62,804 nt of DNA from Balamuthia mandrillaris (lineage: Eukaryota). The notes below the pieces were generated by a model. That model searched no databases. It saw only the letters and a program-made list of their open reading frames with translations, and was not told the origin of the DNA. How positions within the stretch are numbered: the stretch's first letter is position 1; every line of letters starts with the position of its first letter. The stretch is taken from assembly GCA_031835245.2 (NCBI GenBank), contig JAVKOQ020000086.1:124001-186804 (forward strand), read 5' to 3'. Position numbers and translations under genes: made by a program. This document shows, piece after piece, positions 2,967-37,257 of the stretch.

Positions 2967-3006
<40 letters not shown>

Positions 3007-3619
3007 AGACTTTGTGAATAAGATGAAAGAAAGCACAAGCAAACCAGCAGCAGCTCCAGGAACAGTGACGGTGTGGACGGAGTATGGCGGCAGCTGCGTT
3101 TGGTCCTTTGACTTGAGAACCCCCAACTCTCGCAACAAAGGAATGGAGAGAGCGGCAGGAGCACGACCACTGCCGTTCAGCCCTCGAACAGTACCAGACC
3201 CTGCGTCGTAGTACAGGCAGAAGCAGTCTCCTCCTATTCCCGTGCTCGTTGGCTCTGTCACCTTTGGTTGGGATGTTAACAAACGCAACAATGAGAAGAG
3301 AGAAGCGAGAAGGACAGAAGAGAGAAGTAGAGAAGAGGAGAACGAGAAGAGAGAAGAGAACGAGAGAAGAGGGAAGCAACGAGAAGAATACATTGAGAGC
3401 AGCAGCAGTGGCGATAGCAGCATCAGCAGCGTTGCCCCCCAGTTCAAGTATTTTGAGGCCAGCTGGTACGTATGGAAACAAAAGTCAGGCCTGAAAGAAA
3501 GAAAGAAACAAAGTTCGCAATGTTGAAAACAAACCAGCAGCAGCCAAGGGCTGGGTGCACGCCACAATGCCCTTGGTGCCCAACACAGGCGACCGTCGTG
3601 ACCTCCAGCTGCCCTCCAT
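1312..3619 (-). CDS. Gamma-glutamyltranspeptidase family (Ntn hydrolase), about 6 exons
   Basis: Motifs [55 protein letters not shown], nucleophile Thr in [57 protein letters not shown]. Segments are separated by pyrimidine-rich GT-AG introns. Confidence 0.93.
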
Positions 3620-3654
3620 TCTCTGGTGTCTGTTCAAGGTGGAGGTTGATATAA

Positions 3655-3775
3655 CCACGTCGACACGGATATGTCGCCTTAATTCCGTCGACAAATAATC
3701 ACAGATATGTCTATGCTTACCACGTCGACAGTAAATTTTTGATGTCGACATTTAGACTTATTTGTCGACGAAATT
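3655..3775. promoter_or_regulatory. Bidirectional GGT/CHFR promoter region with five GTCGAC copies and an 18-bp inverted repeat
   Basis: GTCGAC at 3659, 3687, 3724, 3744 and 3764. Arms 3681-3698 and 3758-3775 are 17/18 complementary. Lies in the 200 bp between divergent ATGs (3619 and 3819). Confidence 0.55.
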
Positions 3776-3818: not shown

Positions 3819-6800
3819 ATGTCGAATGCGGTGTTGGACACTACGGCGGATAAGGAGGAAGGGGAAGAACGAGACGAGCGCGGACACGAATCTCTGCAAC
3901 GACAACAACAAGGACGACTGTGGGGCCGTCTCGTGGCCATCAACAAGAGCTTTGAAAATGTGGACCTGGAGGAGGACCTGTGGATGGGACGCCACAAGAG
4001 CTGCCACCCGTTGTGTCGCTTTGAGGAGGACCGCAAGATCAGCGCCAAGCATTGCCATTTGTTTCGCGAGGAGGAGGAGGGGACGAACGGCCGAAGGGGT
4101 GTGTGGCTGGAAGACCTTAGGTTTGTATTCTCCACTTCACTTGACTTCTCTCCTATCTCCTCTCTCTCTCTCTCCTCAGTCTCCTAATCTTGGAAAAAAA
4201 AAAACAAACAGTTCAAATGGCACCTACGTGAATGGCAAAAAGATCGGCAAAGGCAATCGAGTGGTGTTACGACACGGTGATGAGATCTCTCTCGTTTACC
4301 CGGCCTTCAACACTATGCCCAAGTCATCTCGTTCGTCTCTTCTTCTTGTTGTTGTTGTTGTTCTTCGTCTTGTTCTTCTTCTTGTTCTTCTTCTTCTTCT
4401 TCTTCTTCTTCTTCTTCTTGTTCTTCTTCTTCTTCTTCTTGTTCTTCTTCTTCTTCTTCTTCTTCTTCTTCTTCTTGTTCTTCTTCTTCTTCTTCTTGTT
4501 CTTCTTCTTCTTCTTCTTCTTCTTCTTCTTCTTCTTCTTCTTCTTCTTCTTCTTCTTCGCTCTTCTTCTTCTTACTTTCTGAACTCAACAAACAAAAAAA
4601 TATAATATGATGTGTAGAGTATGCTGCATACGTTTTTCAAGACTTGACACGATCGGAAGAAACCACAAAGGAAGAGGAAGAAGAAAACATTGCAACTCAA
4701 CCTTTGGACGAGGAAGAGGGAGAAGAAGGAGCAAAAGCGAACGAAGAGCCTCAGCAACAACAAGCCGAAGAAAAAACGCTGGTGGCCCCAGATGAAGTGG
4801 ATGACGAAGCCAAAACAAAGGAGCCGATGCAAGCAACAGCTACAACCGAAGAGCCCGATGGCAACTCTCCAAACAAGAGAAAGGTTCGTTGTGTTTGCGT
4901 TTATTTCATTCACTTGCTTACTGGTTGTGTTATTCTTAAATAGAGAGAGGGTGTAGAAGATCCAATAACTATCAATTCTACTTCATCTTCATCGACAACT
5001 TCCTCTTCTTCTACTAGTTCTTCCTCTTCTGCTGTTGACGACGAGGCTGAGCGCGACAGAAAGAAAATGAAGGTTTGTTTGATGTGATCACTGTTGACGT
5101 TGCGGTGAAGAAAACTGAAGACATTTCTTGTTTCTGTGGCAGAAAATGGAAGCAATTTATGAGTCCGAGTTGGTTTGCGTATGCTGCCATGAATTGCTGC
5201 ATAAGTGTGTAACGCTCATTCCTTGTCTACACAACGTCTGTGCCTATTGCTATGGAGAATGGAGGGCACGTTCTCCTGTTTGGTACTTTTTGTTCTTTGC
5301 TACTACTATATCTTTCTTGTTGTTGTTCATGTTCTTGTTATCGTTCTTCATCTTCTTCTTTCTTTCTTCTTGTAATTTCCTATTTGTTTGTTGCTGATGC
5401 ATCACTCATTGCTCAAACTTCAGTCCGCAATGCAGAGGAAAGGTTAAAGGATTGAGTCGAAATCATGCTATTTGTAATCTTATAGGTACACTATTACCAC
5501 TTCTTTGGTTCGTCAACACCTTTGGGGTTTTAAAAAGGCTCTCTCTCTTTCTGCAACAAAAGAATCATACTTGGAAGCCAATCCAGACAAGAAGAGAGAT
5601 GAAGAGGAGTTGAAAGACATGGACGCAAACAGCAAAATTACAGACGAAATGGTAGCATTCCTTTTATAGTTGTGTCTTGCTTTTTCTTTAATTTCTTGTT
5701 TGATATGCTTCTTCCAATTTCTTTCTCGTAGTTTCTCTCTTTCTTTCTTCATTTCGTTATTTCTTTCTGGGTTATGGAACCGTACTAACTTGTGTATTAC
5801 AGTTACGCAACAAAATTTCTTACAGAGATGATGACGAAGATGAAGAAGATGACGAAGAAGAAGAAGAAGAAGAGGAAGATGATGACGGTGGAGACAGGTA
5901 CATAGCACCGGCTCCGGTCGTGAGGTGGGGTTTTCCCAGCATGCCTCTCCCTTCTTTTGGCATGTCTTTCTTCCCTCGTCCCGCTGTGTGCAGTGAGTGC
6001 ACCACTGCAAGTACGGCTTTATTTTAAGCATCCTGTCGCTTATCATTATAACTCTGTTCTCTACTCCGTTGCTTGTCCTTCTTATCTCTTGACCCCTTCT
6101 TTCTGTTTGTCTGCTTCTTTCCACATATTCTCTGCGCCTCTTCGCTTATATGGCCAGAATCTAACTCATATTTCAACAATAACAGGAATTGGCGATGGTT
6201 TCAAGTGTCCAACAGGTGGCGCCCATCATACTTGTACAAGCTGTCTTCGGGTGCCTATATCTGCTTTCTTAGTTATTTTTTGCATTATTATTAATGTATC
6301 TTTGTTGTACCAGTCCTTTCCTAACCGTACGGATGTACCTGTGACTGTTCAATGTACTTCCCGTTCTTATTCCTTTTTTCTAGTTTTCTTCTCTTCTTCT
6401 CGCTTCTCTGCTTCTCTACTCTGTTGTTCACATGTTCATTGTTGTCAAAAAAAAAAAGGTGAACTTTGCCATCGTTATTACTGTGACAACTATTGGGGTT
6501 GTACCGCTGGCGCAGGCAGCTCGTTGAAACCTCTTTCTGAACACACATTCACTTCTCTACCTTCCAACTGTCTAAAGTTTGTTCTCTCACTCTTCCCATT
6601 CTTCTTCTTCTTCTTCTTCTTCTTCTTTTCTTATTCCTTTTTTCTTCTGTGGTTCCAATACTCGATTTTTTTTTCAAGCCACAATCAAGCAGAGCAAGAC
6701 ATTCTTCTCAAGTATCTCAGTAACCAGGGAAAGGGCGTATCTGACCTTTGGGCGGACTGTCTTAATTCTCTGGACTCTGGAGACATGATATTCAGTTTCG

Positions 6801-7203
6801 TTCTTTTCTCTTTTATTTTTTAAACTTTTTAACTCCGATAAACACCAACAAATGCTGGCCAAAACAAAAATAGGCGATGTGCTAACCCGGATAAATGTGC
6901 AGTCGACCAACAACAGCTGCGAGAGCTGCGCCCAACACGTCTTCAAGTCCCTCGTCTATCCTTATCGCAGCAGCATCGACGCGGAAGATCTCCCCGAGGA
7001 GGCCAAAGGCCGGCCCGACTGTCACTGGGGACAAAACTGCCGGACCCAACGTAACGTTTCGAGTCTTCCTTTTCTTCCTTTTTTCCCTCTCTTCCCGTTT
7101 CTCATTTTTTTTTTCCTTTTGGTTACGATGCCACCGAACAGAACATAATATCTCCCATGCCAAACGTTACAATCACATCTGCGAACAAACGCGATTCGCA
7201 TAG
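3819..7203 (+). CDS. CHFR: CHFR-like E3 ubiquitin ligase (FHA-RING-Cys-rich-PBZ), multi-exon
   Basis: FHA (WGRL..MGR..ISAKHC..SNGTYVNG), RING (CVCCHELL..PCLHNVCAYC..CPQCR), Cys-rich region, and C-terminal PBZ (RPDCHWGQNCRTQ..HAKRYNHICEQTRF). Confidence 0.92.
4339..4574. repeat. (CTT)n microsatellite with GTT interruptions, in a CHFR intron
   Basis: Directly visible tandem trinucleotide repeat. Confidence 0.95.
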
Positions 7204-8062
7204 TTTGGATGCTCTAACCTTTGCTTTTTTCGTTGCGTTGTTTTTTTTTTTTTCTTATGTTTCCGGTTGCTGCCCTTCCCCCCCGCGGCCGTTTTGGCCA
7301 TAAAAGCGACGCCTTCCTGGTCCACCCCAAGGAGATCACTGCCCTACCTTGGGCAAATACACAGATCGTTTCTGCAAATGGGAAATTTCTCATCAATTTG
7401 ATTGCCTTTTTATAGAAAACATATCTCGTCAAACTTCAATTTTCCTAATACATCCTTGTATGGCTAATATGGATCTCCGATACGAACCATATCGGGCGTA
7501 AGCCGATAGAAAATGCCGATGAAATTTGCTGTTTATGGAAGGCAAGAGCATAGGTGGAACGTTGTTTAAAACCCAGCCAGCGTAGCAAGCGCGCAATCCA
7601 ACGGGCCGATGAGAAATTTGAGGATTTCCTTCGTTTCTTTTTGGTGGAGCAAAAAAAAAAAGGCGAGAAGGAGAGAGAGAGAAAAGCGAATATTATTATT
7701 GTTTTTTTTTTGGGAAGCGCGTTCGGAGAGGAGAAAGAACGGTCCAACCAAGGGGGATTGGTGGGGGGTCACGACGCTTTAAATACAAAAAAACGAGAAA
7801 GAAAGAGCTCGGGGCTTGTGTGACCTTAAAGGTTGGTATTATTATCGTCCGTCAGGACCATCTTTTTTTTTTAAAAAAAAAAGAGTTTTCATGTGTGTGG
7901 TGTTTCCATCTCTGTTTTGATATCCAGAGGAGAAGGAGGAGGAGGAGAAGAAGAAGAAGAAAAAAAAAGATAGCCGGAAGATAACATATTTTTGTTTGCT
8001 GAAGGAAAAAAAAAACAAAAGGAAACATCCTCCCCCTCTGGAGTGGAACAAACAAAACGACG

Positions 8063-8859
8063 GTGGAGCCACCACACCAGCATCGGCGTGACGAAGAGGA
8101 GGAAGCACAAGAAGAAGCTCACATAGCAGAGGAAAGCGGCTCGTTGCCAACAGAAGAAGCACAACACCATCGAAGCAGCAGAGAGGACGACATGCAGTAT
8201 GAAGGAAGAGCGGCCTCTCGGGAACCGGTCAGCATGTCGCGCCACCACCAACACCATCTTCACCATTTGACCGGAGAGGAGGAAAGCGAGGGATTCCTTT
8301 CTGCTTCTTCTTCATCCGTCGCTTCGTCTGCTGCAGCTGGTTCTTCCCTGGGCGCTGGCACGGGACTTGCTGATATGGAGGGGCTGATGTCAAGCTTCAA
8401 GTTGATGGCTAATACGCCCACTGAATTGGAAACCCGTTGGCAAGAGGTCTCCTTTCTTTGCTTTCGTTTCGTTCTTCCTTCTTGATGTTTCTATCTGCTT
8501 TCGACTTTCTTTTCTCTCTTTATCTTTAACCTTCTTTTCTTTTTTTTTTATAAAAAGGTTTTGTTGCTTTCGTTGAGACTGACGGAAACTTCACGACAAG
8601 CGATGGTGAGGGAGCTCTCTACCACTGAACATAGACAAGCTTTGGCGGATGCAAACTTGCTTCACTCTCTGTTGACTGCACGTGCTGGAATCCTTGTCTG
8701 CTATCACTGTGGTTCGCATTCTTGGTCTTCTACTTGTTTGTTTTAGCCTTTTCTTATGCGTATTTGCTTACATAACTATTCCCTTTGGGTGTATTTTTAA
8801 ATAGGTACAACTGCCACTCCACAATGGCGGACTGGACCTACTGGCCCTAATCAGTACCT

Positions 8860-8899
<40 letters not shown>

Positions 8900-9795
8900 T
8901 CTCCTCTTTGTATCCAATGATTCACACAACAAATAGATTGTGCAATGCATGTGGCTTGCGCTATGCCAAGGAGCTGAAAGCACAGGGAAAATCTCTGCCA
9001 AAAGTGGAAGGCACAGAGGCAGGTCTTTTTGGTGGTCGCCGAAAGAGTTCTTCCAAACGAGAACGAACCGAGTTTCAATGGACCCGAACTCCACTAAGAG
9101 ATATTCCAGTCTCTCACAGCGCTCATGAAGAGCCGGAAGAAACATGGACAGATGCGGACAGTCGACATGAGCAACTTCACTGTCGTCCCATTTTTGAGCA
9201 AGAGCGACATATGGATGCTTCAGTTTCTTCTCCATCTGCTTATCATGGCACAGAGTTAATGCATCACGACTTGCCTACTGCGAACAAGAATGACATTAAC
9301 AACAGTAATGTCAACAAAGGAACGAGAAATAGAGCCATCAGAGGAAAGAAACGAACTGCGTTTACTTATTCCTTCCCTATAGATTTTGAAAGAGAAATGC
9401 AGAAAGAGAGGGAGAAGAAGGAAGGAGAAGAAGATGAAATGGCAGTCGCCAACGAAGAAGAGACCGAAGATGATGAACCTTCATTGGAAGTAAAGACTAC
9501 AAAGAAACAGTCTCACAGAAACAAGAAGAAGGCCGATAAGAAGCAGGCTAAGCACAAAAAGCAAGACAAGAGAACATCATCACCGGAGAAATCTCCCTCA
9601 CCGGAGCAACCCCATTTCTTCACTTCCAGCTCATTTCAACCCATTCATAATTCGTCTTCAGAGGCACAAGAACACAACAAAGATGACGAAGGCGACGAGT
9701 TAGTCATCAAAGAGGACAAGAATGATAGGCAAACGTCACCATCCACACCAAGTGGATCTCCAACTAAGTTGAACCTCTCGTTCGTTCTCAACTGA
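8063..9795 (+). CDS. GATA zinc-finger transcription factor (true start uncertain)
   Basis: The finger is split over exons: LVCYHCG | TTATPQWRTGPTGPN | LCNACGLRYAK. Acidic/basic low-complexity tail ending LNLSFVLN*. Confidence 0.85.
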
Positions 9796-10463
9796 GAATG
9801 CAAGAGCGAGAGGAGAGTTTTGTTTTGGCACCTTTTTTTTTTCAACAGTTTTGCTTTTTTTGTTTTGTTTGGAGAGAGAATTTGGTTTTGAGAAGTTGCT
9901 GCTTTATTAACTTTTCTCTTCTCCCTTTTTTTTTTCTCAGTTTTTTTGTTTTTGTTATTTCTGTTTTTTGTTCACACAACTTGCACATTCATTTTTTTGT
10001 TTTATTTTAAAGTTTTTGTTTTGTTGTTAAGTCAACGACAACTTATTTAAAAGTAAAGTATCACAATTTTGAAGTTTCACAGCGCATCCATTGTTTCTCT
10101 CTCTTGTCCTCCCCATCCTTCCATTACTTCTTGTCATACCGATTCCTTTCGTTCACCTCTATATCCTTTTTTTTTTTTGGGAATGCGCGGACACATCACG
10201 ATGACCAGCACAGGCACTGTCCCCGTTGGCCAAGCTTGCTTCTCCTCATTTTTCCTACCCTCCTTGTACTGGGCGCACCGCCGAACAAGAGGACAAAAGG
10301 ACGAAAGAGAGCAAGCGCTATGGCAGATAATAGCGTCTGCGATTATCGGTACATTTTTCTAGTTTCATGATATTTGTCGACATATTATCGATGTTTCGAG
10401 ATAATTGAAAGTATTGCAACAATTGTGGAAAGGTGAAAAATATATTTGCAACTATCAGAAAAG

Positions 10464-12149
10464 ATGGATAGAGAAGAAGAAGAGGAGAGGAAGGAGGAAG
10501 CAGAGGAGGAGGAGGAGGAGGAAGTGGGAGAAGAGAAGGAGGAAGATGAAGATGAAGAGGAGGATGAAGATGAAGAGGAGGATGAGTGGGAGGTCGGAAG
10601 ACAACAAAGAAGAAAGATGGCAGCAAAACTCAGAAGAAAGCGGCACAAAGAACAACAACAAAAAGAACAAGCTGCCCTCCCCCTTCCCTCATCACCACCA
10701 CCACACAACCAAGCAGCAGCAGAAGAAGTAGAAGAGGAAGAACAAACAACACCACCACAAAACCAAGCAGAAGCGGCAGAAGCAGCAGACCAAAAAGAAG
10801 GAGAAGGAGGAGAAGAGAAAACCAAAGCAGCAGAACCACATGGGACAGAAGACAAAGAACAAGCCATGGCACCTCTCCACGATGAAGCACAACAAGAAGA
10901 AGAAGAAGCAGAAGAAGCGGAGGCGGAGGAGGAAGAGGAGGAAGAAGAAGAAGAAGGGGTGGGGACACTTCCACCGGAGATGCTGGCAGTGATATTCTCC
11001 TACCTGGACAGCAAGGACCTCTTGGCCATCAGCCTGAGCAACGGAGAGCTCCGCTCCTTGGCCCTCTCCCAGCTCTATTACTTCCGCATGCCCGCCAGGC
11101 TCAGCAACAATGCTGCCACTTCCTTGTTGCGCCGCCTCTCCTCCGTCTCCTCCTCCATTCAGGTCTTGGGTTGGTTCTCTGCTTCCTTCTTTTCTCCTCT
11201 CTCTCCTCTCTCCTCTCCTCTCTGCTCTCTCAATGCTTCTCCCTCCCCCTCTCCTCTCATGTTCTCTCCTCTCTCTCACATGAGTTTAAACTCACGCATT
11301 GTAAACACAACTAAAACAACAAAAGACTTCACGTACTGCCACAAACTGAACAACAAGGTGTTGGGCATTCTGCCCTCCACCCTCCGCAAGCTGGTCCTCT
11401 CTCACTGCGGCAACTTCACGGCCGAGGGCTTCCTCTCCCTCTCCCAACAAACCCCAGCCCTCCACACCTTCTCCGCGGAGTACTGCAGGCAGTTGGACCA
11501 GCGCCTCCTGGAGCTGCTTCCCCGTGGCTTGCACACCCTCCTCCTCCATCACTGCCATCCCGACTTGTTGCAACGCTTTGGCGAAGTGGTGCACGCTCTT
11601 CCTCCCCATTTGCACGTCTTCTCTCTGGGCGGTGGGTTTAGCAAGCTATCGATGGCAAGGAGGAAGCAGCAAGAATGTGATGCTAAAGATTGTTCAGACA
11701 ATGAAGAAGAAAGAGTGCCAACGGTGAATCGGCTGTGTAAGAGCTTGCCAAGGACGTTGAGAAGCTTTTGCTTATTGGAGTGTGGCGTTGCGAACAGCAT
11801 TATGTGCAATGAAAAGGTAGAAGCGAGCTTCTCCGATCTTCCTTCCTCTCTTCGGCGCTTGTACTTGCTGCACACAATCTTTCCGCGCTGCAAGGCGAGC
11901 ATCGCAGAGCTGTTGAAGAGAGGTCTTCCTACCTCCGTGCAAGAGGTGTTCATTCTGCCGATGCGTCTGCATCCCAACCGTTACAGATGCGTGCCATCTA
12001 CATCGGATACAGACCGAGAATTGGGCGAGTGGATGAGCCTTGTGGAAGGGTTGAATGACTATTTTCGAAGAGGAGGATGCGCCACTCGCGTCATATGCCT
12101 GGACAATTGGTATTCTCATTGGGAACAGCTTACTCCGGATGCTTTGTAA
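10464..12149 (+). CDS. F-box/leucine-rich repeat protein
   Basis: Acidic N-terminus and F-box LPPEMLAVIFSYLDSKDL. Removing the 156-nt intron 11170-11325 restores IQVLDFTYC. Repeated LPxxLxxLxL units follow. Confidence 0.9.
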   Translation: MDREEEEERKEEAEEEEEEEVGEEKEEDEDEEEDEDEEEDEWEVGRQQRRKMAAKLRRKRHKEQQQKEQAALPLPSSPPPHNQAAAEEVEEEEQTTPPQNQAEAAEAADQKEGEGGEEKTKAAEPHGTEDKEQAMAPLHDEAQQEEEEAEEAEAEEEEEEEEEEGVGTLPPEMLAVIFSYLDSKDLLAISLSNGELRSLALSQLYYFRMPARLSNNAATSLLRRLSSVSSSIQVLGWFSASFFSPLSPLSSPLCSLNASPSPSPLMFSPLSHMSLNSRIVNTTKTTKDFTYCHKLNNKVLGILPSTLRKLVLSHCGNFTAEGFLSLSQQTPALHTFSAEYCRQLDQRLLELLPRGLHTLLLHHCHPDLLQRFGEVVHALPPHLHVFSLGGGFSKLSMARRKQQECDAKDCSDNEEERVPTVNRLCKSLPRTLRSFCLLECGVANSIMCNEKVEASFSDLPSSLRRLYLLHTIFPRCKASIAELLKRGLPTSVQEVFILPMRLHPNRYRCVPSTSDTDRELGEWMSLVEGLNDYFRRGGCATRVICLDNWYSHWEQLTPDAL

Positions 12150-12234
12150 CTCCTCTCTTTCCTTCTCTTTCAAGTTTATCCATCCTCTTCTTTTGTTCAT
12201 TTACAAAAAGAACCAAGTCGTTCTTCCATTTTAT

Positions 12235-13246
12235 TTACTCATCAACAGGCCAACCCCCGTTATTCCACGGATTCCTCTTCTGTCCTCGATTCTCTCTTCC
12301 TTGCCTCCACCTCCTACTCCTCGCTCCCGCCGATGCTTCCTCCTTCTTTCTCCTTCCTCCTTTGTTTCTTCCTTGTTCATCCCCCTCTTCTTCTTCTTTC
12401 ACATCCTGTAACACAAGATCGCCAGCCAATTCAAAGGCTGCTCGGAATGGCAACAGCTTCTTCTCCCTCTTATCATCCAATACCGCGAACACAACCCTCT
12501 CAAAGCCATATCCGTTCTCCTCTTCTTTTCTCAAGCAGTCTCGAAAGTATCTCGCCACATCGACGGCTCTGTTTCGAAAGACGCCACACCCAAAGGCGCC
12601 CAACACCAACACTCGGTGCTCGTGGTGCCGCGCCACGCAGAGGATGCGGCGTATGCGCTCCTTCATCACGACCGCTATGGCTCTCTCCACGTCCTCCTGC
12701 CTGCAACGAGGGAGCAGCTGCGAGCGAACGGCGCCGGCGTTGACGGCGGGGCTGCTGATGAAGGAGACCAAGTAAGGCTCATCCAGGAGGAGGCCCTCGT
12801 CGTCCCTAAAGACCGGCACTTGCGGCGAATAGATCATATGATGCGTGTAGAGGCAGTGATGGGAGAACGCCTCCGAAGAAGACGAGGCAGAGGAAGAAGC
12901 ACCACTTGAAGAAGAACGTGAACGACGAGGGCGGGAGGCTCGAAGAGAGGCATGAGCAGAGTACATGGCGCTGGCGATGGGAGAGGTGAGCGTGGCGTAG
13001 AGGCCGCTGCTTCGCGCCAGGGACTCCTCCTGCGCGGAGGAGCCTTTGAGGAAGCCCCCGCCGGGGTTGTGCGCCGAGGCAAAGTTGAGCACGCATACGT
13101 CGCGCTCGCCCTCCTCCACCAGCCGTCTGGCCGCCTCCAGGGTGGTGCAGTTCTCCACCTCTATGATGGGAAGCTTTGGCTTGTTATCCTTCTGCTCCGC
13201 TTCTTTTTGTTCTCCTTCTACTTCTTTTTCTTTTTCGACTTCTTCT

Positions 13247-13278
<32 letters not shown>

Positions 13279-13602
13279 ACTTTCTTCTTCTTTTGCTCTT
13301 TCCTCGTCGATGGTGTTCTTCTCCGCTTCGCCTTCTTCTCTTTCTTCTTCTTCTTCTTCCTTTAGCGTGGTCTCCGCTTCGTCCGTTGTTGGCGCCGAGT
13401 CGTTGGCTCTCTTCCGTCGCTTGGGCTTTTTGGGCTTCCATCGAACGTCAGGCACGTAGAGAATGGTCCCTTCGACGGCCGTCTGCAGGTCCTCCTTGAC
13501 GCTGACCCTCTTTCCGTTCTGGCTGAGGTACTTCCCTTCCTCCAAGATCTGCAGGGTGTGAACAGCGAGTGAGGCGCGATGCGACTTGCCAGCCGAACTC
13601 AT
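12235..13602 (-). CDS. TIGR02452/DUF2263 macrodomain protein (bacterial-type poly(ADP-ribose) glycohydrolase)
   Basis: Intronless ORF with VLNFASAHNPGGGFLKGSSAQEESLARSS (GGG-x6-QEE catalytic loop), IYSPQVPVFR, SPAVNAG and LVLGAFGCGVFRN. Confidence 0.93.
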
Positions 13603-13948
13603 GTTTTATTTTTGTGTGGGGGTTTTGCACAAAAAGTCCAAAAAAAAAAAAGAAGACTTTGGGGTCTTTCTTTCTTTCTAAATTTATTTATAGGATGAAG
13701 GGATGGTAAAAACAACAAGAAAAAAAAAACAACAAGTTGAGAAGAAAGCGGGAAGGCAGCAGAAATGAAGTGGACACCACCACCACCAGTCGTAGTTGCT
13801 CTTTGTTTTTTTTCACTTCCCTTTTGTTTTTGTTTTTGATGAATATTTTCTGTCAGGTCGTCATGGAAGAACATATTTTTGTCGAATTATTCAATTTTTT
13901 GTGGAAAAATTTATGAAATAAATATTTCACTTAATTTTGAAAGATAAG

Positions 13949-14015
13949 TTCATGACGACATTAAAATAAACTTTATATAAAGTATATTTTAAGTTTATTT
14001 TAATGTCGTCATGAA
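13949..14015. repeat. Perfect 25-bp inverted repeat with 17-nt spacer
   Basis: TTCATGACGACATTAAAATAAACTT (13949-13973) and AAGTTTATTTTAATGTCGTCATGAA (13991-14015). Confidence 0.92.
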
Positions 14016-28613: not shown

Positions 28614-31600
28614 TTACAACTTAAATACTTCGCTCTTATTAAATAGATAAAACATAGAGACAGTGTGTTCTTTGATGAAGAACATGACTGCAGACGTTAT
28701 CATCGAATGCAGCAGTTTCATCTTCAATCCGCGATGGTACATTGGTAACACCTCTCCAAAGATACTTATCACCATTCCACATCTCATTTGGTGGCGATAC
28801 CGAGGTAATTGCTTTCCTTCTTCATCTTCCTCTTCGTCGCCTTTATCTTTGAGGTTTCTGATCTCTCGAAAGTCAGAAGTTGGACACAAAAGAAGACCGG
28901 CTTGATGTCTAACTCGCAAAACTTGGATGGGGTATGTCAACGTTGTGGCTATCATTGATGACAACGCGCCGAGAGACAGGCTCAGTAACGGGAACGACAT
29001 GTGGAGTTGAGTGGACTGCAGGAATGGGACCCCATTGCTATCCACTGCGAAGAACTCCATGGCGAATCCTTCCAACATTACGTATACGTTGGACTGCACG
29101 ACTGGAAACAAAATCATCACCTAGGACGATGACAGGACATTAGGAAGGGCAGAACAAGGGAGGATTAGAAGAAGCAGAAGGAAACGGGGAATGCATGAAG
29201 AAGATGGGATGAAGAAAGAGAGAAACAAACCAAGTTAGGGAAAAGACCTCGCCAAAAGCCAACAAATCCTTCTTCCTTCCACAACCGTAGCACTTCATCA
29301 GAAAAACCCACACAATTTTCTGATGAGGGTGACGCAACTTGCAACCGAGTGATAATGACCCAAAGCGGTGTTGACACCAACACGTTCGCCACTCCACCCA
29401 TAAAAGCAGGTATCCAGCTCGTCGTTATCGTCCAGTTCTCACCATCTTCATCTGAGGAAGAGGATATAGCCGAAGAAGAGAAAGAAACAGATGAAGAGTA
29501 GGATGACATGGCGTGAAATACCAACCAAAAGATAAAGCTCGACAGACCGGCAGTCAAAATAGACAACATTCTTCCAGGCACGGATGATGAAGAGGAAGAG
29601 GAAGAAGAAGAATGTTCATGCGGCGTTTGTTGACCGCTATTGTTGGTTTGTTGCACGATAATACCAGCTGCTTGTTGGACGTGTTTCAAAAGGAGGCTGT
29701 AAGCAACGGCTTGACAAACCATTGCTCCCAACGCTCCTCCCAATGCTTTCACAAAGACTGAAGGCTCTTTGCCTTCTTCTTCTTCTTTGTTTCCTGCTTC
29801 ATTTTCATCTTCGCGACGATCGTGACGATGAGGAGAAGCATATGAAGGCAGAGATGAAGAAACAATTTTCTTCAACAGAACGCGACGCAAGATGTCCACT
29901 TCACCGACAGTGCTTTTCCACAGAGGGCCTCCTGTTTGTGCTGGCAAGAATCTGGCATACCCATCTCCTCCTTCTGCTAGCCACTCCGTCACAACTATCC
30001 ATATCCCATCCTCATCATTTACTTCCTTCCATACTTCTCCTTCCTCGTCATCTTCTTTTTGCGAATAGTAATGTCGCAACGCTTCGTCCTCTTCATTGCA
30101 TTGCTTCAACACGGCAGCTCTCAGCCAAGTCACTTTTGGTGTGGAGTTGTTGTCGGAGATGCCAAACCGAAGACCGGCTGTTTGCAAGACTGCACCTCCG
30201 TAAGAGGCAGCATCTCCTTCCAGCCCATTCATTACTCGAAGCGAACGTTCTACCATTTGACGGAGTTCTCCTCCTGTTGCCTTCAACATGACCAACTGGT
30301 TGTTCCATGGCAGCATCTCGCGAACGTGTCTGTCATGCAGCGGGCCGCTCCAAAGTTGAGATCGAATTGACCCTGATTCACGAAGAGCGATCACCAGTTC
30401 TGTTTCTTGAAGGAGTGAAGATGACGAGACTTCGCAAAGAGCATACCGGCGCATCGCGTCAGCAATGAACTTGCCCATTACGCATGGTCCCACTCTGCAA
30501 GAAGTTCGACTGTCGCTCAGCAACGTCCTTCCGACTTCTTGTTCTCGATCTTGCAGCTTATTCCTCCTCTTCTTCTTCTCTTTCTGTTTATTCCTACGCT
30601 GCACCATTTTGTCGTCTGCATCGTTATTCTCTGCTGAAACGATAGACTCGTGTCTATTTTGGATGATGGCCAATAGAGGACCCAACTGCAAAGCGTTCAA
30701 TCGAGGTTGCAACCATTCATGAACGCTCTGTTTGGTTGCAGTATGGTGAAGACGCAGCTTCTCCTCCTCCTTCGCTACTTCCACATCCATAATCACAACA
30801 TTTTCCTTCATCGCACGAAGAGCGTTCCGCTTTGACTTTGACGGAAGTGTCTCTACTCCATCTATCTCTTCCTTCCATACAAGACCGACCAACCCAAGGT
30901 ATTGCATGGAGTGGCCCGCATGAATCACTAATACCGAACCGCTTCTCCCTTCTCCTTCTCCTTCTTCAACGTGTAAGGCATGTGCATGGCCACCAAGAAT
31001 CACATTAATCAGTCCTTTCGTGCGAGCTGCAAGGAACGAGTCCAGTTCAACCCCTCCGTGGCCTAGCAGAATTACCGCATCGCAACCCTTTCTACGCAGC
31101 TCCTTTGCTTCCTCTCTTACCAACTCCAAAATGTGGTTCCTTTCGCTCACTCCAGTGAGCATTGCCGACTCTGCATCCGTATACCCCATCACCCCAATCT
31201 TCTTTGCGTGACTTGCTTCGTCATCGATGTTGACGATGACAGAGGGCTTGACTCCATTCGCTTTGACATTGACAGAAAGCACAGGAAAACCAGCACTTTG
31301 CACGAACGCTGGAATATCCGATAAGAACTCCATGTCATGATTTCCAAGGGCCATGGCCTTATAGCCCAATATCCGCATGAGATGAGCCATCCCCAAGGGA
31401 CCGTGTGCAGCGAAGAATTCGGAACCCACAAAAGAATCTCCAGCAGACAGCAGCAACACGGAAGAAGCAGAAGTTGACAATTGGCGATGCATAGTAAGAA
31501 GATCTAGATGAGCGGCGAGCAAAGGAGCCAAAGAGACGTGACCATGAACATCGCTGTTGAAGGCGATGAGGAGGTCTGCAGAGCCAACAAAGGAGGGCAA

Positions 31601-33489
31601 CGGCGATGATAATGTGATAATAGGAAGAGAAGTCGAGGAAGAAGATGAGGGAGAGAGAATCAGATTGCTGTCAGGAACCACGATAACCGTTCTCGGGTTG
31701 TGAACAGCGAGAGAGAGGAAATGAGATTCGTCTGGCGGTTCGTTCGTTTGAGGAGGAAGCAACGCAATAGGAGAAGAGGTTGGGGCGGGTGAAGCTTCAA
31801 AGGAAATACTTCCCAACTCGCACTTGATAGCAACCGCGCTTGTTTGCAAACTTCCGGCGTGGGCGCTTCTTGCTATGTTGCCCGAAGCAGGAGAAGAACA
31901 AGTTGCTATGTTCGAGGCTTTGAGTCGTTCGATGGCCTCATCAGCGAGTTTGGAGAATCGTCCCACAACGTCGTCATTCGCGTCTTTATTGTCTCCCTGC
32001 GCAACTACAACGTGGCATGATGGACCTGCTTCGGCGGAAAGATGTTCCACAAAGTCCATCACCTTTCCTTCCACTTTGGCCAGAGCTAACTGCATCCTCG
32101 TTGAATGCATTCCATCAGGATCAAACAATGACCACAACGCGGTGGAGTTTGCCTCCTTCCCTCGTCCTTGTGGGTGAAGGGGAGGATGTCGAAGCAAAGC
32201 GACAAACCCAGAACCCCTGCAATGCAGAAACTCCTCCGAAGAGTCACAAAGACAGGGAGCAAGGCTGGCCTGCCATCCCGTTCGAAACAAGGAGAGGTCC
32301 CCATGGCAAGTGTCTCTCCCTCCAGACATTGCCAAGGGCAGCTGCATCAGCTGCTGATGAGTGAGGGAAAGGAGATGTTCAGTGTCACGAACGCCGATGG
32401 GGAGGCGGGCTTGCACGTTGTCGCGCAGGTCTAGTATTTCAAATGTTGTCGTCTCGTTGTACTCAACAAATACGTGGGAAAGATACTGTAAGAAGGTGAC
32501 CACGAGAAAGTTCAGTGGCGCAGCTGCTGGCGCAAAAGAAAAGCGGAGGATACTAACCTGAACACTATCATAGCCGGCCTCGCGAGCTTTCACACGCACG
32601 AAAGGATTCACCACGTGAATTTGATGTCGTTCAGCTGGCACAGTGCTGCTCTCGTTTGTAACACACCTCCACCCTCCGCCAAAGTGATTGCATGCCTCAA
32701 CATGAGTGCTGTTGTTTTCTTAAATGAGCTGCGGAGAACGAGAAAGAGCAAGGAAGAAAAGAAGAGAGGCTGAGGATAGAAGTGAGACAAAGAGAGAGTA
32801 AAAAGAGCAGAACTAAACTGAAAAACAATTGTTTTGCCGAGGTTGTAGAAGATGCCTGTGCCAACGTTGAAGAACATCCAAAACCCTTCTGGAAGGTACT
32901 CGCAGCATCTATGAGTAACTTCTACCCACGACCCCGAAGGTATGCCCTGTGGAAACCTTCTCAGAAAAGGCCCTGATTTGTGCTGTTTCCCCCGTTCCAT
33001 ATCTCCAAATGCGTGAATGGTGTAACCATGGTCTTCTGGTTTGAGGCTTCTAAATGACTCCAGATAGACATCCCCGAATCTTACCTCAGCCCGTCGCATA
33101 CGGTCATGTAAATAACGTGCATACACGGTGCGTATGTCTTGTTTCAACCTGAGCGGGAGATGACGATGGTAGAAGAAGGTGAAGTTTCGCGTGTCGATGG
33201 GAAAGCCAAGGAGATGAGGGCCGCCGTAGACGGAGGAAAGGTAGAGGAGCCACTCTGGTTCCTGGAGGAGCTGCTGCTCGTTCCCAAAGAGAGGAAAGGC
33301 CAAGGCGCGGGTGCCGTAGAAGTTTGGTCCCCATTCAACACAGCTGTGTGCAATCGAAGGTGCCAGAGGCGTTTCTGCGCCTATTGCAGCGCAACTCAAG
33401 CAAAGCAGCGCAAAAACTGTGAGTGCGAGGTGGCGTTGCATCCGTATCGATGCGCATCGGTTCTCCTCCTTCCACCCTAGAACTAGCAT
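28614..33489 (-). CDS. Fusion protein: signal peptide + uncharacterised domain + 5'-nucleotidase/apyrase + SLC25 (PMP34-like) carrier
   Basis: Exons 33489-32819, 32708-32558, 32485-29231 and 29120-28614 join in frame through GT-AG introns. Metallophosphoesterase motifs SDVHG, AGD, LGNHD, GH, GGHAH. 5'-NT C-domain (GKFIADAMR, ESGSIRS, LPWNN, LAEGGDGY). Carrier motifs STPLWVIITRLQ, EEGFVGFWRGL, TYPIQVLRVRHQ. The start may be Met 33441. Confidence 0.8.
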
Positions 33490-33639
33490 CCGCCTCACCT
33501 AGTTCCGCCGAAAGGCACACTGTCGACACAAAACATTTTTTCGATTATTGATCGGATTGATTATTTGTCGCCTAAATTTAAAAGTTTGTAATTTTTTCGA
33601 AATATTGTGATATATTTCCGATTTAGTATCGCAATAAAC

Positions 33640-33762
33640 CTCCGGCGTGCCTAATCACGGCTTGTCTTACGACTCGCTATAAGCAACGGTGCCGGCACCA
33701 AAGCAACCTTACCGCCTACCGCCCCCTCACAGAGGAGGAGGAGGTGGTGGTAAGTGCTTGTA
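33640..33762 (-). ncRNA. Putative Fanzor omegaRNA scaffold / element right end, overlapping the ORF stop
   Basis: Long stem CAAGCA-CTTACC..CCTCCTC/TGT/GAGGGGG..GGTAAG-TGCTTTG spans the stop codon. It is followed by GGTGCCGGCACC, TTGCT-TAT-AGCGA and GTC-GTAA-GAC (GNRA loop), then a switch to AT-rich host DNA near 33640. The position matches known TnpB/Fanzor omegaRNAs. Exact ends are unknown. Confidence 0.65.
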
Positions 33763-35455
33763 ACGTAAAAAAGCGGATCAAGATGTTTCGGGAGGCGTTG
33801 GCATCTCGATCGGCCTGGTAGCCACACTCGGGTTGGGGGCACCGAAAGGTCTTGTTTCCCCCCAACTGGTGGTGGACTTGGCCGCACTTGCCGCAGGTCT
33901 TGGAGGTGTATTCCTCATCGCAGAGGCAGACCGTACAGGACGGAAATTGCTTGGCCTTGTTGAGGAGCCTCTGCCTGAAGCTATAGTGGGACCAGGTGAG
34001 CATGGCTCTGGCCGTTCGTGAGCCAATGCGTCGGTGGCCTCGCCGCACCATCTGCTGGCTCCTGAACTCTGGCAGAAGGATGAGGGAGAAGTTCCTGACC
34101 AACCAAGACACGAGCTTCTTGTGGAGGTCATCCACCAGGTTGCGGATCCTCTGGCGAAGCCGAGCAGCGGCCCTTCGGAGACGGCGCCGTTGCCTGTGGT
34201 TGACCTTGGTGCCCTTACTCTGCATGCGGTCCAGGCGGTGGCACAGCTTGCCTATCTCGTTGATGTCCGCTTTGCCCCACTCGGTGACCTCCCCGCAGCC
34301 GTTGTAGGTGGTCATGAATGTGCGCACTCCTGGATCCAAGGCGATGATGCCTGCCTCTCTCCTTCGGTGCTCACGGACTTGGCTCTCGCCCATGAGCTTC
34401 AAAGGCTGAGGCACACAGAGGTAGTAATGGCCCAGTCGAGTGTCTTTCACCAGACGAACGGCATAGAGCACCTCCGACGGAACTTTGTAGTTCTTGTCCC
34501 TCGCTTTGATTCGCGTCTCCCCGAAGAAGAGTTGGCGGATGGACTTGCTGTGGTTCCACTCCCTGGCTTGGATGCTGAGAGACTGGCTCTTGTCCTTCCG
34601 ACCACGGAACTTCATCTTGAATCCAGTCCTGCCCGCCGCCAAGCTGGTTTTCACGCCGTTGAAGAAATCATCGACGGCGTCACTGCGAATGTATCGAGGA
34701 GTTTCCAACACCCACGCAAGGCTCTTGTCCTCTCCGTTGAAATTGCCGTTATTCAGGAATTTCTCCCTGACTTGTTCCTTCATCTCCTTAAGAGGCATTC
34801 CTTTATGTTCACGATGAAACTCCACGGCCTTGTTGTAGGTCCATCGTACTGTGCCGAACCACTTGGCCAGCGTCTTCTTTTGTTCCGAGCGCGGATAAAG
34901 GCGGATCTTCTCCAATCGCCCCACTACCGGTTTCTCCTCTCCATTCTTGCCTTTTTTGGTGAGCTGTACGGCTGGGCGAGACGGAACGAGTCCCTCGATG
35001 AGGCCTAACAAGCCTTTCTGGTTTTTCTCCTCTTCTTCCTTCTCCTTCTCCTTCTCCTCTTCCTCTTCCTCCTTCTTCTCCTTCTCCTTCTTCTCCTCCT
35101 CCTCCTCCTCCTCCAACACCTTTTCTCCGTTAGGAATGTGCTTGCAGGCGGTGAACCATCCTGAACCACAGGCAAAGGGTTCTTCCAAGCACAAGGCTTC
35201 TGGGCGTATTAATCTTCTCCCGATTTCGCTGGAAAACTGGTTCCAAAAGGGCTGGGCGGGTGCAGCCTGCGGCCTTCCACGCTTCTGTGCCCTTGCCTGA
35301 GGTGCCGCTGGGGCGTTTTCCGCTCTTCTTTTCCGAGTAGCAGTGGGAGTAGAAGAAGTAGTGGTGCGACCCCCTTCCTTGTGGACCCGACCGAAGTGAA
35401 CGGCCAACCCGTGAGAGGTAGCAAACTTTTTTCGGCACTGTGGGCAACTTGCCAT
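33716..35455 (-). CDS. Fanzor2 (IS607/TnpB-derived RNA-guided endonuclease) with N-terminal C2H2 zinc finger, 579 aa
   Basis: OrfB-type HTH (KIRLYP..QKKTLAKWFGTVRWTYN), MKFRGRK, RuvC-I IIALDPGVRTF (D374), Pro at the canonical RuvC-II position (ILLPEF), alternative Glu in DEEYTSKTCGKCG (E514), Zn ribbon FRCPQPECG, RuvC-III DRDANASRNI (D551). N-terminal CPQC-x12-H-x4-H. Intronless with no stops. Confidence 0.95.
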   Translation of the reverse strand: MASCPQCRKKFATSHGLAVHFGRVHKEGGRTTTSSTPTATRKRRAENAPAAPQARAQKRGRPQAAPAQPFWNQFSSEIGRRLIRPEALCLEEPFACGSGWFTACKHIPNGEKVLEEEEEEEKKEKEKKEEEEEEKEKEKEEEEKNQKGLLGLIEGLVPSRPAVQLTKKGKNGEEKPVVGRLEKIRLYPRSEQKKTLAKWFGTVRWTYNKAVEFHREHKGMPLKEMKEQVREKFLNNGNFNGEDKSLAWVLETPRYIRSDAVDDFFNGVKTSLAAGRTGFKMKFRGRKDKSQSLSIQAREWNHSKSIRQLFFGETRIKARDKNYKVPSEVLYAVRLVKDTRLGHYYLCVPQPLKLMGESQVREHRRREAGIIALDPGVRTFMTTYNGCGEVTEWGKADINEIGKLCHRLDRMQSKGTKVNHRQRRRLRRAAARLRQRIRNLVDDLHKKLVSWLVRNFSLILLPEFRSQQMVRRGHRRIGSRTARAMLTWSHYSFRQRLLNKAKQFPSCTVCLCDEEYTSKTCGKCGQVHHQLGGNKTFRCPQPECGYQADRDANASRNILIRFFTLQALTTTSSSSVRGR

Positions 35456-36067
35456 TCAGGCCAGCTTCCAGCAGCGTTGTGGAAGAGGCGCACAGAGGTT
35501 CGTGATGCTGTTCTTTTTTAAACAAAAGAAATCATTAGTGAGTGGTTGGTAACAAATTTTTTTTCCATCATCAAAAAATGTAGTGAGCGAGCAGAGAAAA
35601 AAGAACGCTACCTTTTCAATCGGAGCGGTGCCCCTGCCTGCTGCTGAACCGCTTCGGTTTCCACCTGTGCCTCCTTCCGCCGCTGGTTTCCTCCTTGTGT
35701 AGTAGAAGCGTAGCAATGAGAAATACGGTGGTGCGTGGAGCTTCGTGGATGTGTGTGTCTGTGTGTTTACTTTTGAAAAGAAAGAAACGACAAGAAAAGA
35801 AGAGAAGAAAAGAAAACGAGTAGCAGAAAAGTGTCAAGGCGAATGACGAGTACCAAAAGTTTATTGGCGGCAGCAGCATGAGCATCCATTCCATTCACCC
35901 CACCCCACACCCCAACCCACCACTTTGCCTTCGAAGACGTGGGAGAAGGAAGGGTTGTTTTGGCGGGAAAAATGCTCATTGGCCCAAAAGACGAATGTCG
36001 GGATTTCTTTTTTGTTGTCCTTAGATCTTATGATCTTTGCGTCGCCTTACAAGCAACACTGGTGTAA

Positions 36068-36272
36068 CGCAGCGCTTCTCTTCTTCTGGACACAAAACAT
36101 GGGGAAGGGAGAAGGCAGAGCAAGCGAAGGGACTACCACACCTTTATCTACAAGGTGCTTGCACAAGCAAGTGCACCCCAACAAGAGCATCAGCAATCAA
36201 GCTATGCTCATCACGGACTCCTTCATTAGGGGCATTGCCTATCCGCTCTTGCAGGAGGCCACCATGCTGTTG
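36068..36272 (+). pseudogene. Frameshifted histone H2B-like fragment
   Basis: RRQSKRRDYHTFIYKVL + 4 extra nt (GCAC, 36161-36164) + KQVHPNKSISNQAMLITDSFIRGIAYPLLQEATML. This aligns with the H2B consensus YIYKVLKQVHP..ISSKAM.IMNSF..I..EA. No in-frame start and no C-terminal helices. Confidence 0.75.
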
Positions 36273-36330
36273 CCTGTTGTTTTTCTTTCGTTCTCGTGCT
36301 TCGTTCCTCTTCTTCATCATCTGTGTTGCA

Positions 36331-37257
36331 CTACCAACCACGAGGCAAAAACTGCTCTAACTCCTTCATGACCCGCTGAATGCCAACCACTAAAGGGGAC
36401 TCCTGGTATGTCCTGCTCCTCCACTGTTGTTGCTGTTGTTGCAGAGCTGCCTTCTTCCTCTTGATCCGGTGCAAGGAGCCATGCTTGTGGGCCTGCCACT
36501 TGAGGAAGAAAGGCATCCAGCGGGCCATCATGCACAGCAGGCAACCCCAAAGGAAACACCTCCTGGCCGCACTCCACTCCTGCCGCTTCCTCAACCTCTG
36601 CCGGTGGTCATAGTAGACCGAGTAGGTGCAGTAGCGCAGGAGGGCTCCCACAAAACACAAGAGGAAGCCCGCACGCAGGCCATAGCGCAGGGCACCCACC
36701 ACAGGGAGGAGGTAGCCCAGGTAGAGGCCCAGCAGGTGGCGTTTGGTGGCAAACTCCACGTCCACCACCGTGCTGCCCTCGTAGTGCACCAACATCACCG
36801 CGTTGCCTTCACTGTTTGTGTTGGCAGGCAAAACAAAAAAAAAGAGAGTGAATACACAAGATTAAGAAAAAGGGTGGGAGAAAGAGTAGCATGCATACAA
36901 GATTTGTTTGTGGAGGTCCCATGCTTGGAGGAGTTCTTTGTGGCGGAGACGAAGGCCCACGTTGCGCAGGTGGAAGAAAAGGGCTTTTTTGGATTGCCAA
37001 CGGTCCGGGCGGAGGGACTGCTGCTCCACGTACTGAGGGGAGAGGTAGCCCTTCCACTCGCCATGGCAGAGCTCCTGCCGGATGCGGCGCTTCCAGTGGA
37101 CCTCGTCGTTGCCGAGGGCGTGGAACCGTTTGTTGGCGAGGGTGAGGTTCAAGGCGTCGTTCTCGTTGAGGAGGACAAACACGTTGAACCATACCTCATC
37201 CGGGAGGTCGTACAGGATCGACGGCTTCTCCTCCTTCCATCTCTTTCCTCGAAACAT
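36331..37257 (-). CDS. F-box protein with two predicted C-terminal TM segments, 2 exons
   Basis: F-box LYDLPDEVWFNVFVLL..LTLANKRFHALGNDEVHW. Intron 36898-36812 joins in frame (QIF|EGNAV). Hydrophobic segments in exon 2. Confidence 0.75.

What the first reader, a model, noticed from the sequence alone, without database searches (positions are those of the whole stretch)
33620..33762. omegaRNA-like structured 3' end and candidate guide reading into the neighbour's promoter
Seen (minus strand): a ~60-nt imperfect hairpin spanning the stop codon, then three small stems including GTC-GTAA-GAC, and possible GCGGT/GCCGT long-range pairing. The sequence continues ..CCGTGATTAG GCACGCCGG AGGTTTATTGCG, where it turns AT-rich. 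Inference: the scaffold ends either after TTAG (33651; guide GCACGCCGGAGGTTTATTGC, TAG-type TAM) or after CCGG (33642; guide AGGTTTATTGCGATACTAAA, CCG/GG-type TAM). Either guide comes from the ~150-bp promoter of the nucleotidase-carrier gene.
Basis: partly seen in the sequence, partly recalled or inferred. Interest (0 to 1): 0.78.

Follow-up and report, generated by a model that had tools for sequence, protein, structure and literature searches.

The report
Fanzor2 guide-RNA end, boundary corrected
This is the end of a many-copy mobile element in an amoeba, predicted to fold into the guide RNA of a known kind of RNA-guided DNA-cutting enzyme (Fanzor2); its guide would simply be the DNA next to the insertion, so the overlap with the neighbouring gene's upstream region is likely incidental.

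Summary
The region is the right end of a multicopy Fanzor2 element (intact D374-E514-D551) in Balamuthia mandrillaris-type DNA. Other copies share the sequence through ...GCCGGAG (33640; loose ends at 33640, 33638 and 33636), so GCACGCCGG is inside the element, not guide. The same layout with other letters occurs in 11 of 97 homologue 3' regions (0.7 in shuffles; pattern drawn post hoc) and in the tested NlovFz2 scaffold. The predicted guide starts at 33639 (GTTTATTGCG...). The TAM likely ends in AG, by analogy with NlovFz2 and MmeFz2. The guide differs from copy to copy, so it is insertion-site flank, which would target the empty site; promoter regulation is unsupported. Long-RNA reads cover the family, but no processed small RNA was shown. 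The left end is unmapped. No IS607 transposase is present, and the N-terminus carries a C2H2-like finger. Verdict: new member of a known kind.

The parts
33716..35455 (-). Fanzor2 ORF, 579 aa: C2H2-like finger (aa 4-25), thumb-type PFWN motif, E/K-rich insert, HTH, RuvC D374 (DPG), E514, C4 zinc finger, D551
   Evidence: best PDB hit 9B0L ApmFz2 by sequence (7e-26) and by fold (5e-20)
33701..33759 (-). Stem 1: long imperfect hairpin over the stop codon, directly before the pseudoknot hairpin as in several homologues
   Evidence: pair probabilities; stem in front of the hairpin in L001, L004, L007, L081, L083
33688..33699 (-). Pseudoknot (nexus-type) hairpin GGU-GCCGGC-ACC; loop strand CCGGC 33695-33691 (predicted)
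33647..33686 (-). Short 3' domain: small stems UUGCU/AGCGA (33686-33674, weak), GUC-GUAA-GAC (33673-33664), and GCC/GGC or GUG/CAC (33661-33647, alternatives). 44 nt lie between the pseudoknot strands, against 53-168 nt in the homologue hits
   Evidence: listed paralogue variants fall in loops or keep a G-U pair
33640..33646 (-). Element right end and predicted scaffold 3' end GCCGG-A-G; GCCGG is predicted to pair with the loop CCGGC
   Evidence: (depth step; loose ends at 33640, 33638, 33636)
33620..33639 (-). Predicted guide (flank), GTTTATTGCGATACTAAATC; start uncertain by about 1-2 nt, length unknown
   Evidence: inferred from the end; single-copy depth from bin 33536-33602 outward; no exact match in viral or prokaryote collections
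33442..33639 (-). Host intergenic DNA (about 200 nt, AT-rich) upstream of the neighbour gene; promoter role untested
28617..33441 (-). Neighbouring host gene: signal-peptide-like start (by eye), metallophosphoesterase/5'-nucleotidase, mitochondrial-carrier domain (annotated as one 1540-aa protein)
35456..35979 (-). 5' part of the element (shared with other copies at least to 35979); the true left end is unmapped, probably between 35980 and 36330; no transposase found
   Evidence: (paralogue gene models map to 35979)

Best explanation
33640-33760 is the shared right end of a multicopy, transposase-less Fanzor2 element and is predicted to fold into its omegaRNA scaffold, with the guide likely read from the host flank starting at 33639. 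Shown: the multicopy family, the end position to about 2 nt, the intact catalytic motifs, family-level RNA reads, and different flanks in different copies. Inferred from TnpB/Fanzor2 biology: a read-through transcript is trimmed to stem 1 + pseudoknot hairpin + short stems + terminal GCCGG-A-G plus about 15-20 nt of flank; it loads on Fanzor2, from this or another intact copy; the complex cuts dsDNA carrying a 3-nt TAM that likely ends in AG, followed by the flank sequence. That sequence is the element-free version of this site, so the cut would drive copying of the element back in by homologous repair. The occupied site offers GAG before the flank and would escape if the TAM is TAG-like.
For: Protein: DPG, shifted Glu, C4 finger and RD are all present and invariant in 107 aligned relatives; best solved relative ApmFz2. 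Family: 12 annotated B. mandrillaris proteins on contigs of 12 different lengths; summed contig depth rises from 47-117 on the flank to thousands on the element in run X1, and from 0-2.7 to 700-2600 in X5. End: other copies match through 33640, 33638 and 33636 and then carry unrelated flanks. Three related ends in one giant-virus bin stop matching right after GTAGG-C-G. Pseudoknot layout in 11 of 97 homologue regions against 0.68 +/- 0.84 (max 4) in 100 shuffles, with G as last base in 11 versus A 1, C 5, T 0; a hit ending within 2 nt of 33640 arose in 5 of 5000 shuffles of the window stretch. The tested NlovFz2 scaffold has the same hairpin/terminal layout and ends ...AAAGG-C-G (TAM CCG); the MmeFz2 scaffold ends ...C-A-G (TAM TAG) (read by eye). 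The two helices alternate in nested folding (0.03-0.9 each), as expected of a pseudoknot. Homing at empty donor joints is reported for an IS607 TnpB (10.1101/2023.11.20.567912, passages).
Against: No small RNA was seen: the RNA runs are long-read-through type libraries (150-nt reads) read at 3-5%, with no pile-up of ends, zero depth on this copy's flank, and both strands about equal, so DNA carry-over is possible. The pseudoknot pattern was drawn after looking at the data and is found in only 11 of 97 regions. A covariance model from 10 homologue hairpins did not find the window's site at E <= 10 (weak model, 0.44 bits per position). The 33640 end rests on 3 reads with 0.81 agreement; the other two loose ends run 2 and 4 nt further, and only 24 of 138 loose ends were shown. 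Left end and TAM are not mapped. No empty allele is visible in X1 (junction contig depth 49.7 versus flank 46.8), so this guide may have no current target. 11 of 12 annotated paralogues lack at least one catalytic motif, so the family may be decaying.
Confidence: 0.82

Rival explanations
1. The stems are a decaying relic or only DNA-level transposon-end sequence; no functional guide RNA is made from this family any more.
For: No processed RNA seen. Most annotated copies are broken. Folding z-scores like this are common in the window. The top of stem 1 is a CCT microsatellite pairing with a G run.
Against: This copy has an uninterrupted ORF with all motifs. The pseudoknot strands differ in sequence from homologues yet stay complementary. 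The listed variants in the 3' domain spare the pairs (70 of 110 variant rows were not shown).
Confidence: 0.12
2. The locus is domesticated: the guide is aimed at the neighbour's promoter to regulate it, like TnpB-derived repressors (TldR).
For: The guide lies in the 200-nt region upstream of the neighbour's ATG. The protein has an extra C2H2-like finger (E 0.07). The neighbour's first exon had zero RNA depth in two runs.
Against: Catalytic residues are intact. The guide varies between copies and is simply the adjacent flank. The element is multicopy. At the occupied site the bases before the guide match are the element's own end. Zero depth may reflect shallow reading or strain difference.
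Confidence: 0.03
3. The guide is an acquired anti-viral or anti-symbiont spacer.
For: Relatives occur in giant-virus contigs.
Against: No exact match of the 20-mer in viral contigs or genome contigs (exact matches only). The sequence runs on seamlessly as single-copy host DNA.
Confidence: 0.01
4. The scaffold ends after TTAG (33651) and the guide begins GCACGCCGG.
For: TTAG resembles a TAG-type motif.
Against: Other copies share GCACGCCGGAG (loose ends at 33640-33636 in three runs). The pseudoknot partner lies at 33646-33642.
Confidence: 0.02

Closest known systems
Naegleria lovaniensis Fanzor2 (NlovFz2) with its omegaRNA (PMC10432273)
   Same: Multicopy amoeba Fanzor2. Same PFWN/PFWD thumb motif, HTH, DPG and shifted Glu; about 46 of 70 residues identical in the bridge-helix/RuvC-II stretch of an N. 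lovaniensis Fanzor listed in PMC10711439 Table S2 (counted by eye). Scaffold layout: stem, CNTT linker, GGN-N-C.... hairpin, terminal complement + N + G.
   Different: Pseudoknot letters CCGGC/GCCGG instead of CCTTT/AAAGG. 44 nt instead of about 86 nt between the strands. End AG instead of CG, so the TAM is likely NAG instead of CCG. N-terminal C2H2-like finger and E/K-rich insert. Activity untested.
ApmFz2 / ISvMimi IS607 Fanzor2 (PDB 9B0L; PMC11832414, PMC10530073)
   Same: Best solved relative by sequence and fold. Catalytic triad aligns (D324/E467/D501 with D374/E514/D551). Its 3'-terminal bases form a pseudoknot with a 5' loop.
   Different: ApmFz2 sits with an IS607 TnpA, has a ~205-nt scaffold and a GGG TAM. 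This element has no TnpA and about 120 nt from stem 1 to the end.
MmeFz2 and other Fanzor2* carried by eukaryotic cut-and-paste transposons (PMC10711439)
   Same: No IS607 transposase in the element; scaffold ends in AG; multicopy.
   Different: Fanzor2* have terminal inverted repeats and target duplications. None was found here (no inverted 10-mer at <= 1 mismatch between the right end and 35960-36420), but the left end is unmapped. By eye the MmeFz2 protein is far less alike than NlovFz2.
TldR, nuclease-dead TnpB repressors (10.1101/2023.11.30.569447; seen only as a search listing, features recalled)
   Same: An RNA guide overlapping an upstream region.
   Different: Catalytic residues are intact, the guide is in cis and differs per copy, and the element is mobile-type.

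Membership tests
Fanzor2 nuclease | RuvC-I DPG motif | tested here: met
   D374-P375-G376, invariant in alignment A5; criterion from PMC10711439
Fanzor2 nuclease | Rearranged RuvC-II: Glu just before the zinc finger, canonical Glu replaced by Pro or Gly | tested here: met
   E514 six residues before C521; P462 invariant; aligns with ApmFz2 E467
Fanzor2 nuclease | C4 zinc finger and RuvC-III RD | tested here: met
   C521, C524, C539, C544, R550, D551
Fanzor2 nuclease | Encoded in a eukaryote or its virus; closer to Fanzor2/IS607 TnpB than to Fanzor1 | tested here: met
   Paralogues and neighbour are named B. mandrillaris; 9B0L ranks first, SpuFz1 rank 34; 105 of 159 relative loci carry a TnpA-like ORF. 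No tree was built.
Fanzor2 nuclease | Guide- and TAM-dependent dsDNA cleavage | not testable with these tools
   Needs a bench assay
Fanzor2/TnpB omegaRNA | Conserved stretch from the ORF end to the element right end, followed by variable flank | tested here: met
   depth step, and different flanks beyond 33640-33636 in three runs
Fanzor2/TnpB omegaRNA | Pseudoknot between a hairpin loop and the 3'-terminal bases | tested here: met
   Predicted only: CCGGC/GCCGG; same layout with other letters in homologues and NlovFz2. The covariance-model test was negative.
Fanzor2/TnpB omegaRNA | Expressed as a discrete small RNA ending about 15-20 nt past the end, bound to the protein | tested here: inconclusive
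   Two RNA runs show family reads (about 5-25x) running 55-99 nt into flanks and no end pile-up; the library type cannot show a small RNA
Autonomous IS607 element | Serine-recombinase TnpA overlapping the nuclease gene | tested here: not met
   A TnpA profile from 5 relative loci gave no positive score in six frames of the window; nothing at E < 0.1 in Pfam for the upstream frames
Autonomous IS607 element | Matching core dinucleotide at both junctions, no TIR or TSD | tested here: inconclusive
   Right end has the invariant terminal G; left end not mapped
Fanzor2* (eukaryotic cut-and-paste carrier) | Terminal inverted repeats and target-site duplication | tested here: inconclusive
   No inverted match found; left end unknown
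TldR-like RNA-guided repressor | Inactivated RuvC and a fixed guide to a site in trans (features recalled) | tested here: not met
   Triad intact; the guide is the cis flank and differs between copies

The most novel reading that the evidence does not exclude
A Fanzor2 element that lost its IS607 transposase, gained a C2H2-like finger not seen in 117 relatives, shrank the 3' domain of its guide RNA, and still spread to tens or hundreds of copies. It would do so by a carrier or a cut-and-copy route not yet described, leaving one amoeba genome with a natural library of guides that a few intact copies use in trans to fix insertions across homologous chromosomes.
Probability: 0.2. Interest if true: 0.65.

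Novelty: new member of a known kind. Interest (0 to 1): 0.36.

Why it matters
It adds a close relative of NlovFz2 with an intact nuclease, a short scaffold (about 120 nt from stem 1 to the end), a different pseudoknot sequence and a predicted AG-ending TAM, ready for an ordinary TAM screen. The simple rule seen here (pseudoknot strand + 2 nt, matching the last two TAM bases in NlovFz2 and MmeFz2) lets scaffold ends be predicted from sequence. What Fanzors do in their native hosts is still open (PMC10530073 discussion). A high-copy, polymorphic family in a culturable amoeba with several sequenced strains makes the homing idea testable from genomes. The promoter-targeting angle that drove the first score does not hold up.

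Tried and rejected
Whole genome not held, so no direct multi-copy alignment was possible. Rfam: no meaningful match (best E 1.4). Single-protein scan of viral contigs: nothing. Nucleotide BLAST of the 3' end against 159 relative loci: only the coding motif matched. Exact-pattern scans of viral contigs: the homologue pattern gave 5 loci, of which 1 was already held (L162 = L083), 1 was a Fanzor-less copy of the same end (L164) and 3 were unrelated. The window's own pattern gave 120 loci with one Fanzor-profile hit on the opposite strand, that is chance. The covariance model from 10 homologue hairpins missed the window site; in 100 other loci its best hits were L009 (just behind its Fanzor, E 0.016) and, fourth, L164. 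RNAalifold on 11 ends predicted only the 3-bp hairpin. Left-end search by repeats: CCGTGATGAG at 36216 resembles the right end, but 45 of 100 shuffles do as well; rejected. Sigma-70 scan not informative for a eukaryote. No RNA holder was listed by the run index. The scan's earlier findings held nothing.

Full report
Observation. The quoted motifs lie at the stated places on the minus strand. A 579-aa ORF runs 35455-33716. The long hairpin 33759-33701 is well defined. The finding's stretch folds at z -2.5 and 33651-33790 at z -3.4, but the plus strand also gives -2.6, and 20 of 314 sampled 143-nt windows reach -2.5 and 6 reach -3.4. Energy alone therefore proves little. The GCGGU/GCCGU pairing has zero probability in three stretches. 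Rfam has no match.

The protein. Pfam finds HTH_OrfB_IS605, OrfB_IS605, the Cas12f1-like TNB domain and a weak C2H2 finger (E 0.07). The Fanzor fingerprints of PMC10711439 (Results part 1 and passages read) are met: D374 in DPG, E514 six residues before the zinc finger, and D551, all invariant among 107 aligned sequences. ApmFz2 (9B0L) is first by sequence and by fold of the AlphaFold model (mean pLDDT 83, residues 1-63 below 50). None of 117 other relatives has a C2H2 pattern in its first 300 aa, and a search with residues 1-110 returned only two B. mandrillaris clusters (proteins of 318-1014 aa only). Of 159 relative loci from metagenome and viral contigs, 105 carry a TnpA-like ORF on the same strand; five examples are Resolvase proteins in Pfam. 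The window has no positive-scoring TnpA stretch.

The family and its end. Twelve annotated B. mandrillaris proteins, on contigs of 12 different lengths, are 78-94% identical where listed. Their gene models map to the window from 35979 down to 33654. Eleven of the 12 lack at least one catalytic motif, and by eye the twelfth lacks a zinc-finger cysteine pair; gene-model or homopolymer errors may contribute. Four of 23 listed runs were laid on 33000-35000. In X1, summed contig depth is 47-117 up to 33602, 5850 in bin 33603-33669 and 5000-14000 beyond; in X5 it is 0-2.7 versus 700-2600. The tool warns that this is no copy number; tens to a few hundred copies is my rough reading. Loose ends of other copies sit at 33640 (X21, 3 reads, agreement 0.81), 33638 (X5, one contig) and 33636 (X22, 7 reads); 24 of 138 loose ends were shown. 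All three share ...GCACGCCGGAG and then differ. So GCACGCCGG is inside the element, and the flank differs per copy. One X1 contig spans 33537-33667 at depth 49.7, equal to the flank (46.8): no sign of an empty allele with the same flank in that run, though contigs drop rare variants.

The pseudoknot. Reading the 3' regions of the best relatives, I noticed a small hairpin with loop CCTAC or CCTAG and a later GTAGG or CTAGG followed by N-G. A scan built on that, and so post hoc, found 7 of 86 regions versus 1.1 +/- 1.0 in shuffles. A generalised version found 11 of 97 versus 0.68 +/- 0.84 (maximum 4), with six different 5-mers; the 97 are unique regions of at least 250 nt among 110 motif hits in the 159 loci. 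The window fits with CCGGC (33695-33691) and GCCGG-A-G (33646-33640), after a CTTT linker like the C-N-T-T in most hits. Twenty of 1000 shuffles of the window stretch give any hit, and 5 of 5000 give one ending within 2 nt of 33640. Three independent checks agree. First, three related ends in one giant-virus bin stop matching right after the terminal G. Second, MAFFT aligns both motifs without structure input, the window's loop one column off. Third, the tested NlovFz2 scaffold in the supplement of PMC10432273 (two rows seen) has CGTT-GGG-T-CCTTT-CCC and ends AAAGG-C-G, while MmeFz2 ends C-A-G. A pseudoknot to the 3' terminus is reported for ApmFz2 (PMC11832414, parts 1-2 read) and is required in ISXfa1. 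In nested folding the hairpin and the CCGGC/GCCGG helix trade places (0.03/0.93, 0.77/0.19, 0.89/0.04). Of 40 variant rows shown (of 110), three fall in 33640-33700: 33653 and 33680 are unpaired and 33664 turns G-C into G-U; a fourth, at 33667 (from P0125's translation), is in a loop. Against: a covariance model from 10 homologue hairpins missed the window site, and exact-pattern scans added no new Fanzor locus.

Guide and TAM. The predicted guide starts at 33639: GTTTATTGCGATACTAAATC. It has no exact match in viral or prokaryote collections. The last two scaffold bases equal the last two TAM bases in NlovFz2 (CG, CCG) and MmeFz2 (AG, TAG), and in CboIStron (scaffold ...UCGG, TAM TGGG; passages). 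I therefore infer an NAG-type TAM (about 0.55). The left end was not mapped; it lies beyond 35979 and probably before the F-box gene's stop at 36331. TAG occurs on the minus strand at 36333, 36241, 36204, 36150 and 36135; none is singled out. The neighbour is annotated as one nucleotidase + carrier protein starting at 33441, so about 200 nt separate it from the element. The host genome is compact (mean intergenic distance 664 bp) and full of unannotated transposons (10.1101/2025.02.25.640156, passages), so an insertion upstream of a gene is unremarkable.

Expression. Two RNA runs, read at 3-5%, gave 159 and 227 reads, about 5-25x over the element, both orientations, none on 33000-33602, and no pile-up of ends. 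Some reads run 55-99 nt into other copies' flanks, compatible with read-through precursors or with DNA carry-over. A processed omegaRNA is neither shown nor excluded.

Mechanism. Shown: family, end, intact motifs, variable flank. Inferred: folding, processing, loading and cutting of the element-free site, followed by repair from an occupied homologue, as reported for IS605 and IS607 TnpB. How this TnpA-less element moves is unknown; a TnpA elsewhere in the genome is the simplest guess and could not be checked.

Novelty. A full-text search for Fanzor with Balamuthia returned 0 papers (also none among 40 listed of 120). The name is absent from the readable supplements of three Fanzor surveys (one file unreadable). 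Amoeba Fanzor2s are known from Acanthamoeba (PMC3627910, passages and section 13) and Naegleria. PMC10530073 and PMC12923547 were seen as passages. Interest 0.36.

Noticed in passing
reads laid on window 34832-34869 and 34316-34350: RNA reads (6+6 in X21; 18+16 and 8+8 in X22) match only 35-38 nt at the HTH and DPG motifs. Their loose ends read by eye as Fanzor2-like peptides, suggesting a second, divergent Fanzor2 family transcribed in the same organism.
   Followed up: no
window 28617-33441; P0131, P0132: The neighbour is annotated as a fusion of a signal-peptide-like start, a 5'-nucleotidase and a mitochondrial-carrier domain. A second copy at 86-91% amino-acid identity lies on another contig, hinting at diverged homologous chromosomes or a duplication.
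   Followed up: partly
window 35381-35446 (aa 4-25 of the ORF): C2H2-like finger at the Fanzor2 N-terminus; absent from 117 relatives; in the place where relatives overprint TnpA. Low confidence in the model.
   Followed up: partly
L164:2501-2643 (-), with L083 and L086: A copy of the same 3' end without a Fanzor gene directly upstream, in the same giant-virus bin as two Fanzor2 loci: a ghost-like omegaRNA locus.
   Followed up: partly
window 33793, 33982, 34031, 34377: The window's copy differs from nearly all laid contigs and reads at these places: private changes, strain difference or assembly errors.
   Followed up: no
reads laid at window 34288 and 34972/34002: Reads join the element's middle to inverted 5' sequence (like 35580) or to right-end letters; 265-413-nt internal skips are also listed. 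Rearranged and deleted copies exist.
   Followed up: no
window 36331-37257 (-): F-box gene directly upstream of the element. Its stop codon TAG (36333-36331) is one of five TAG candidates for the TAM at the unmapped left end.
   Followed up: partly
L071:1110-1400 and 2501-3726: Two Fanzor2 3' ends in tandem on one metagenome contig.
   Followed up: no
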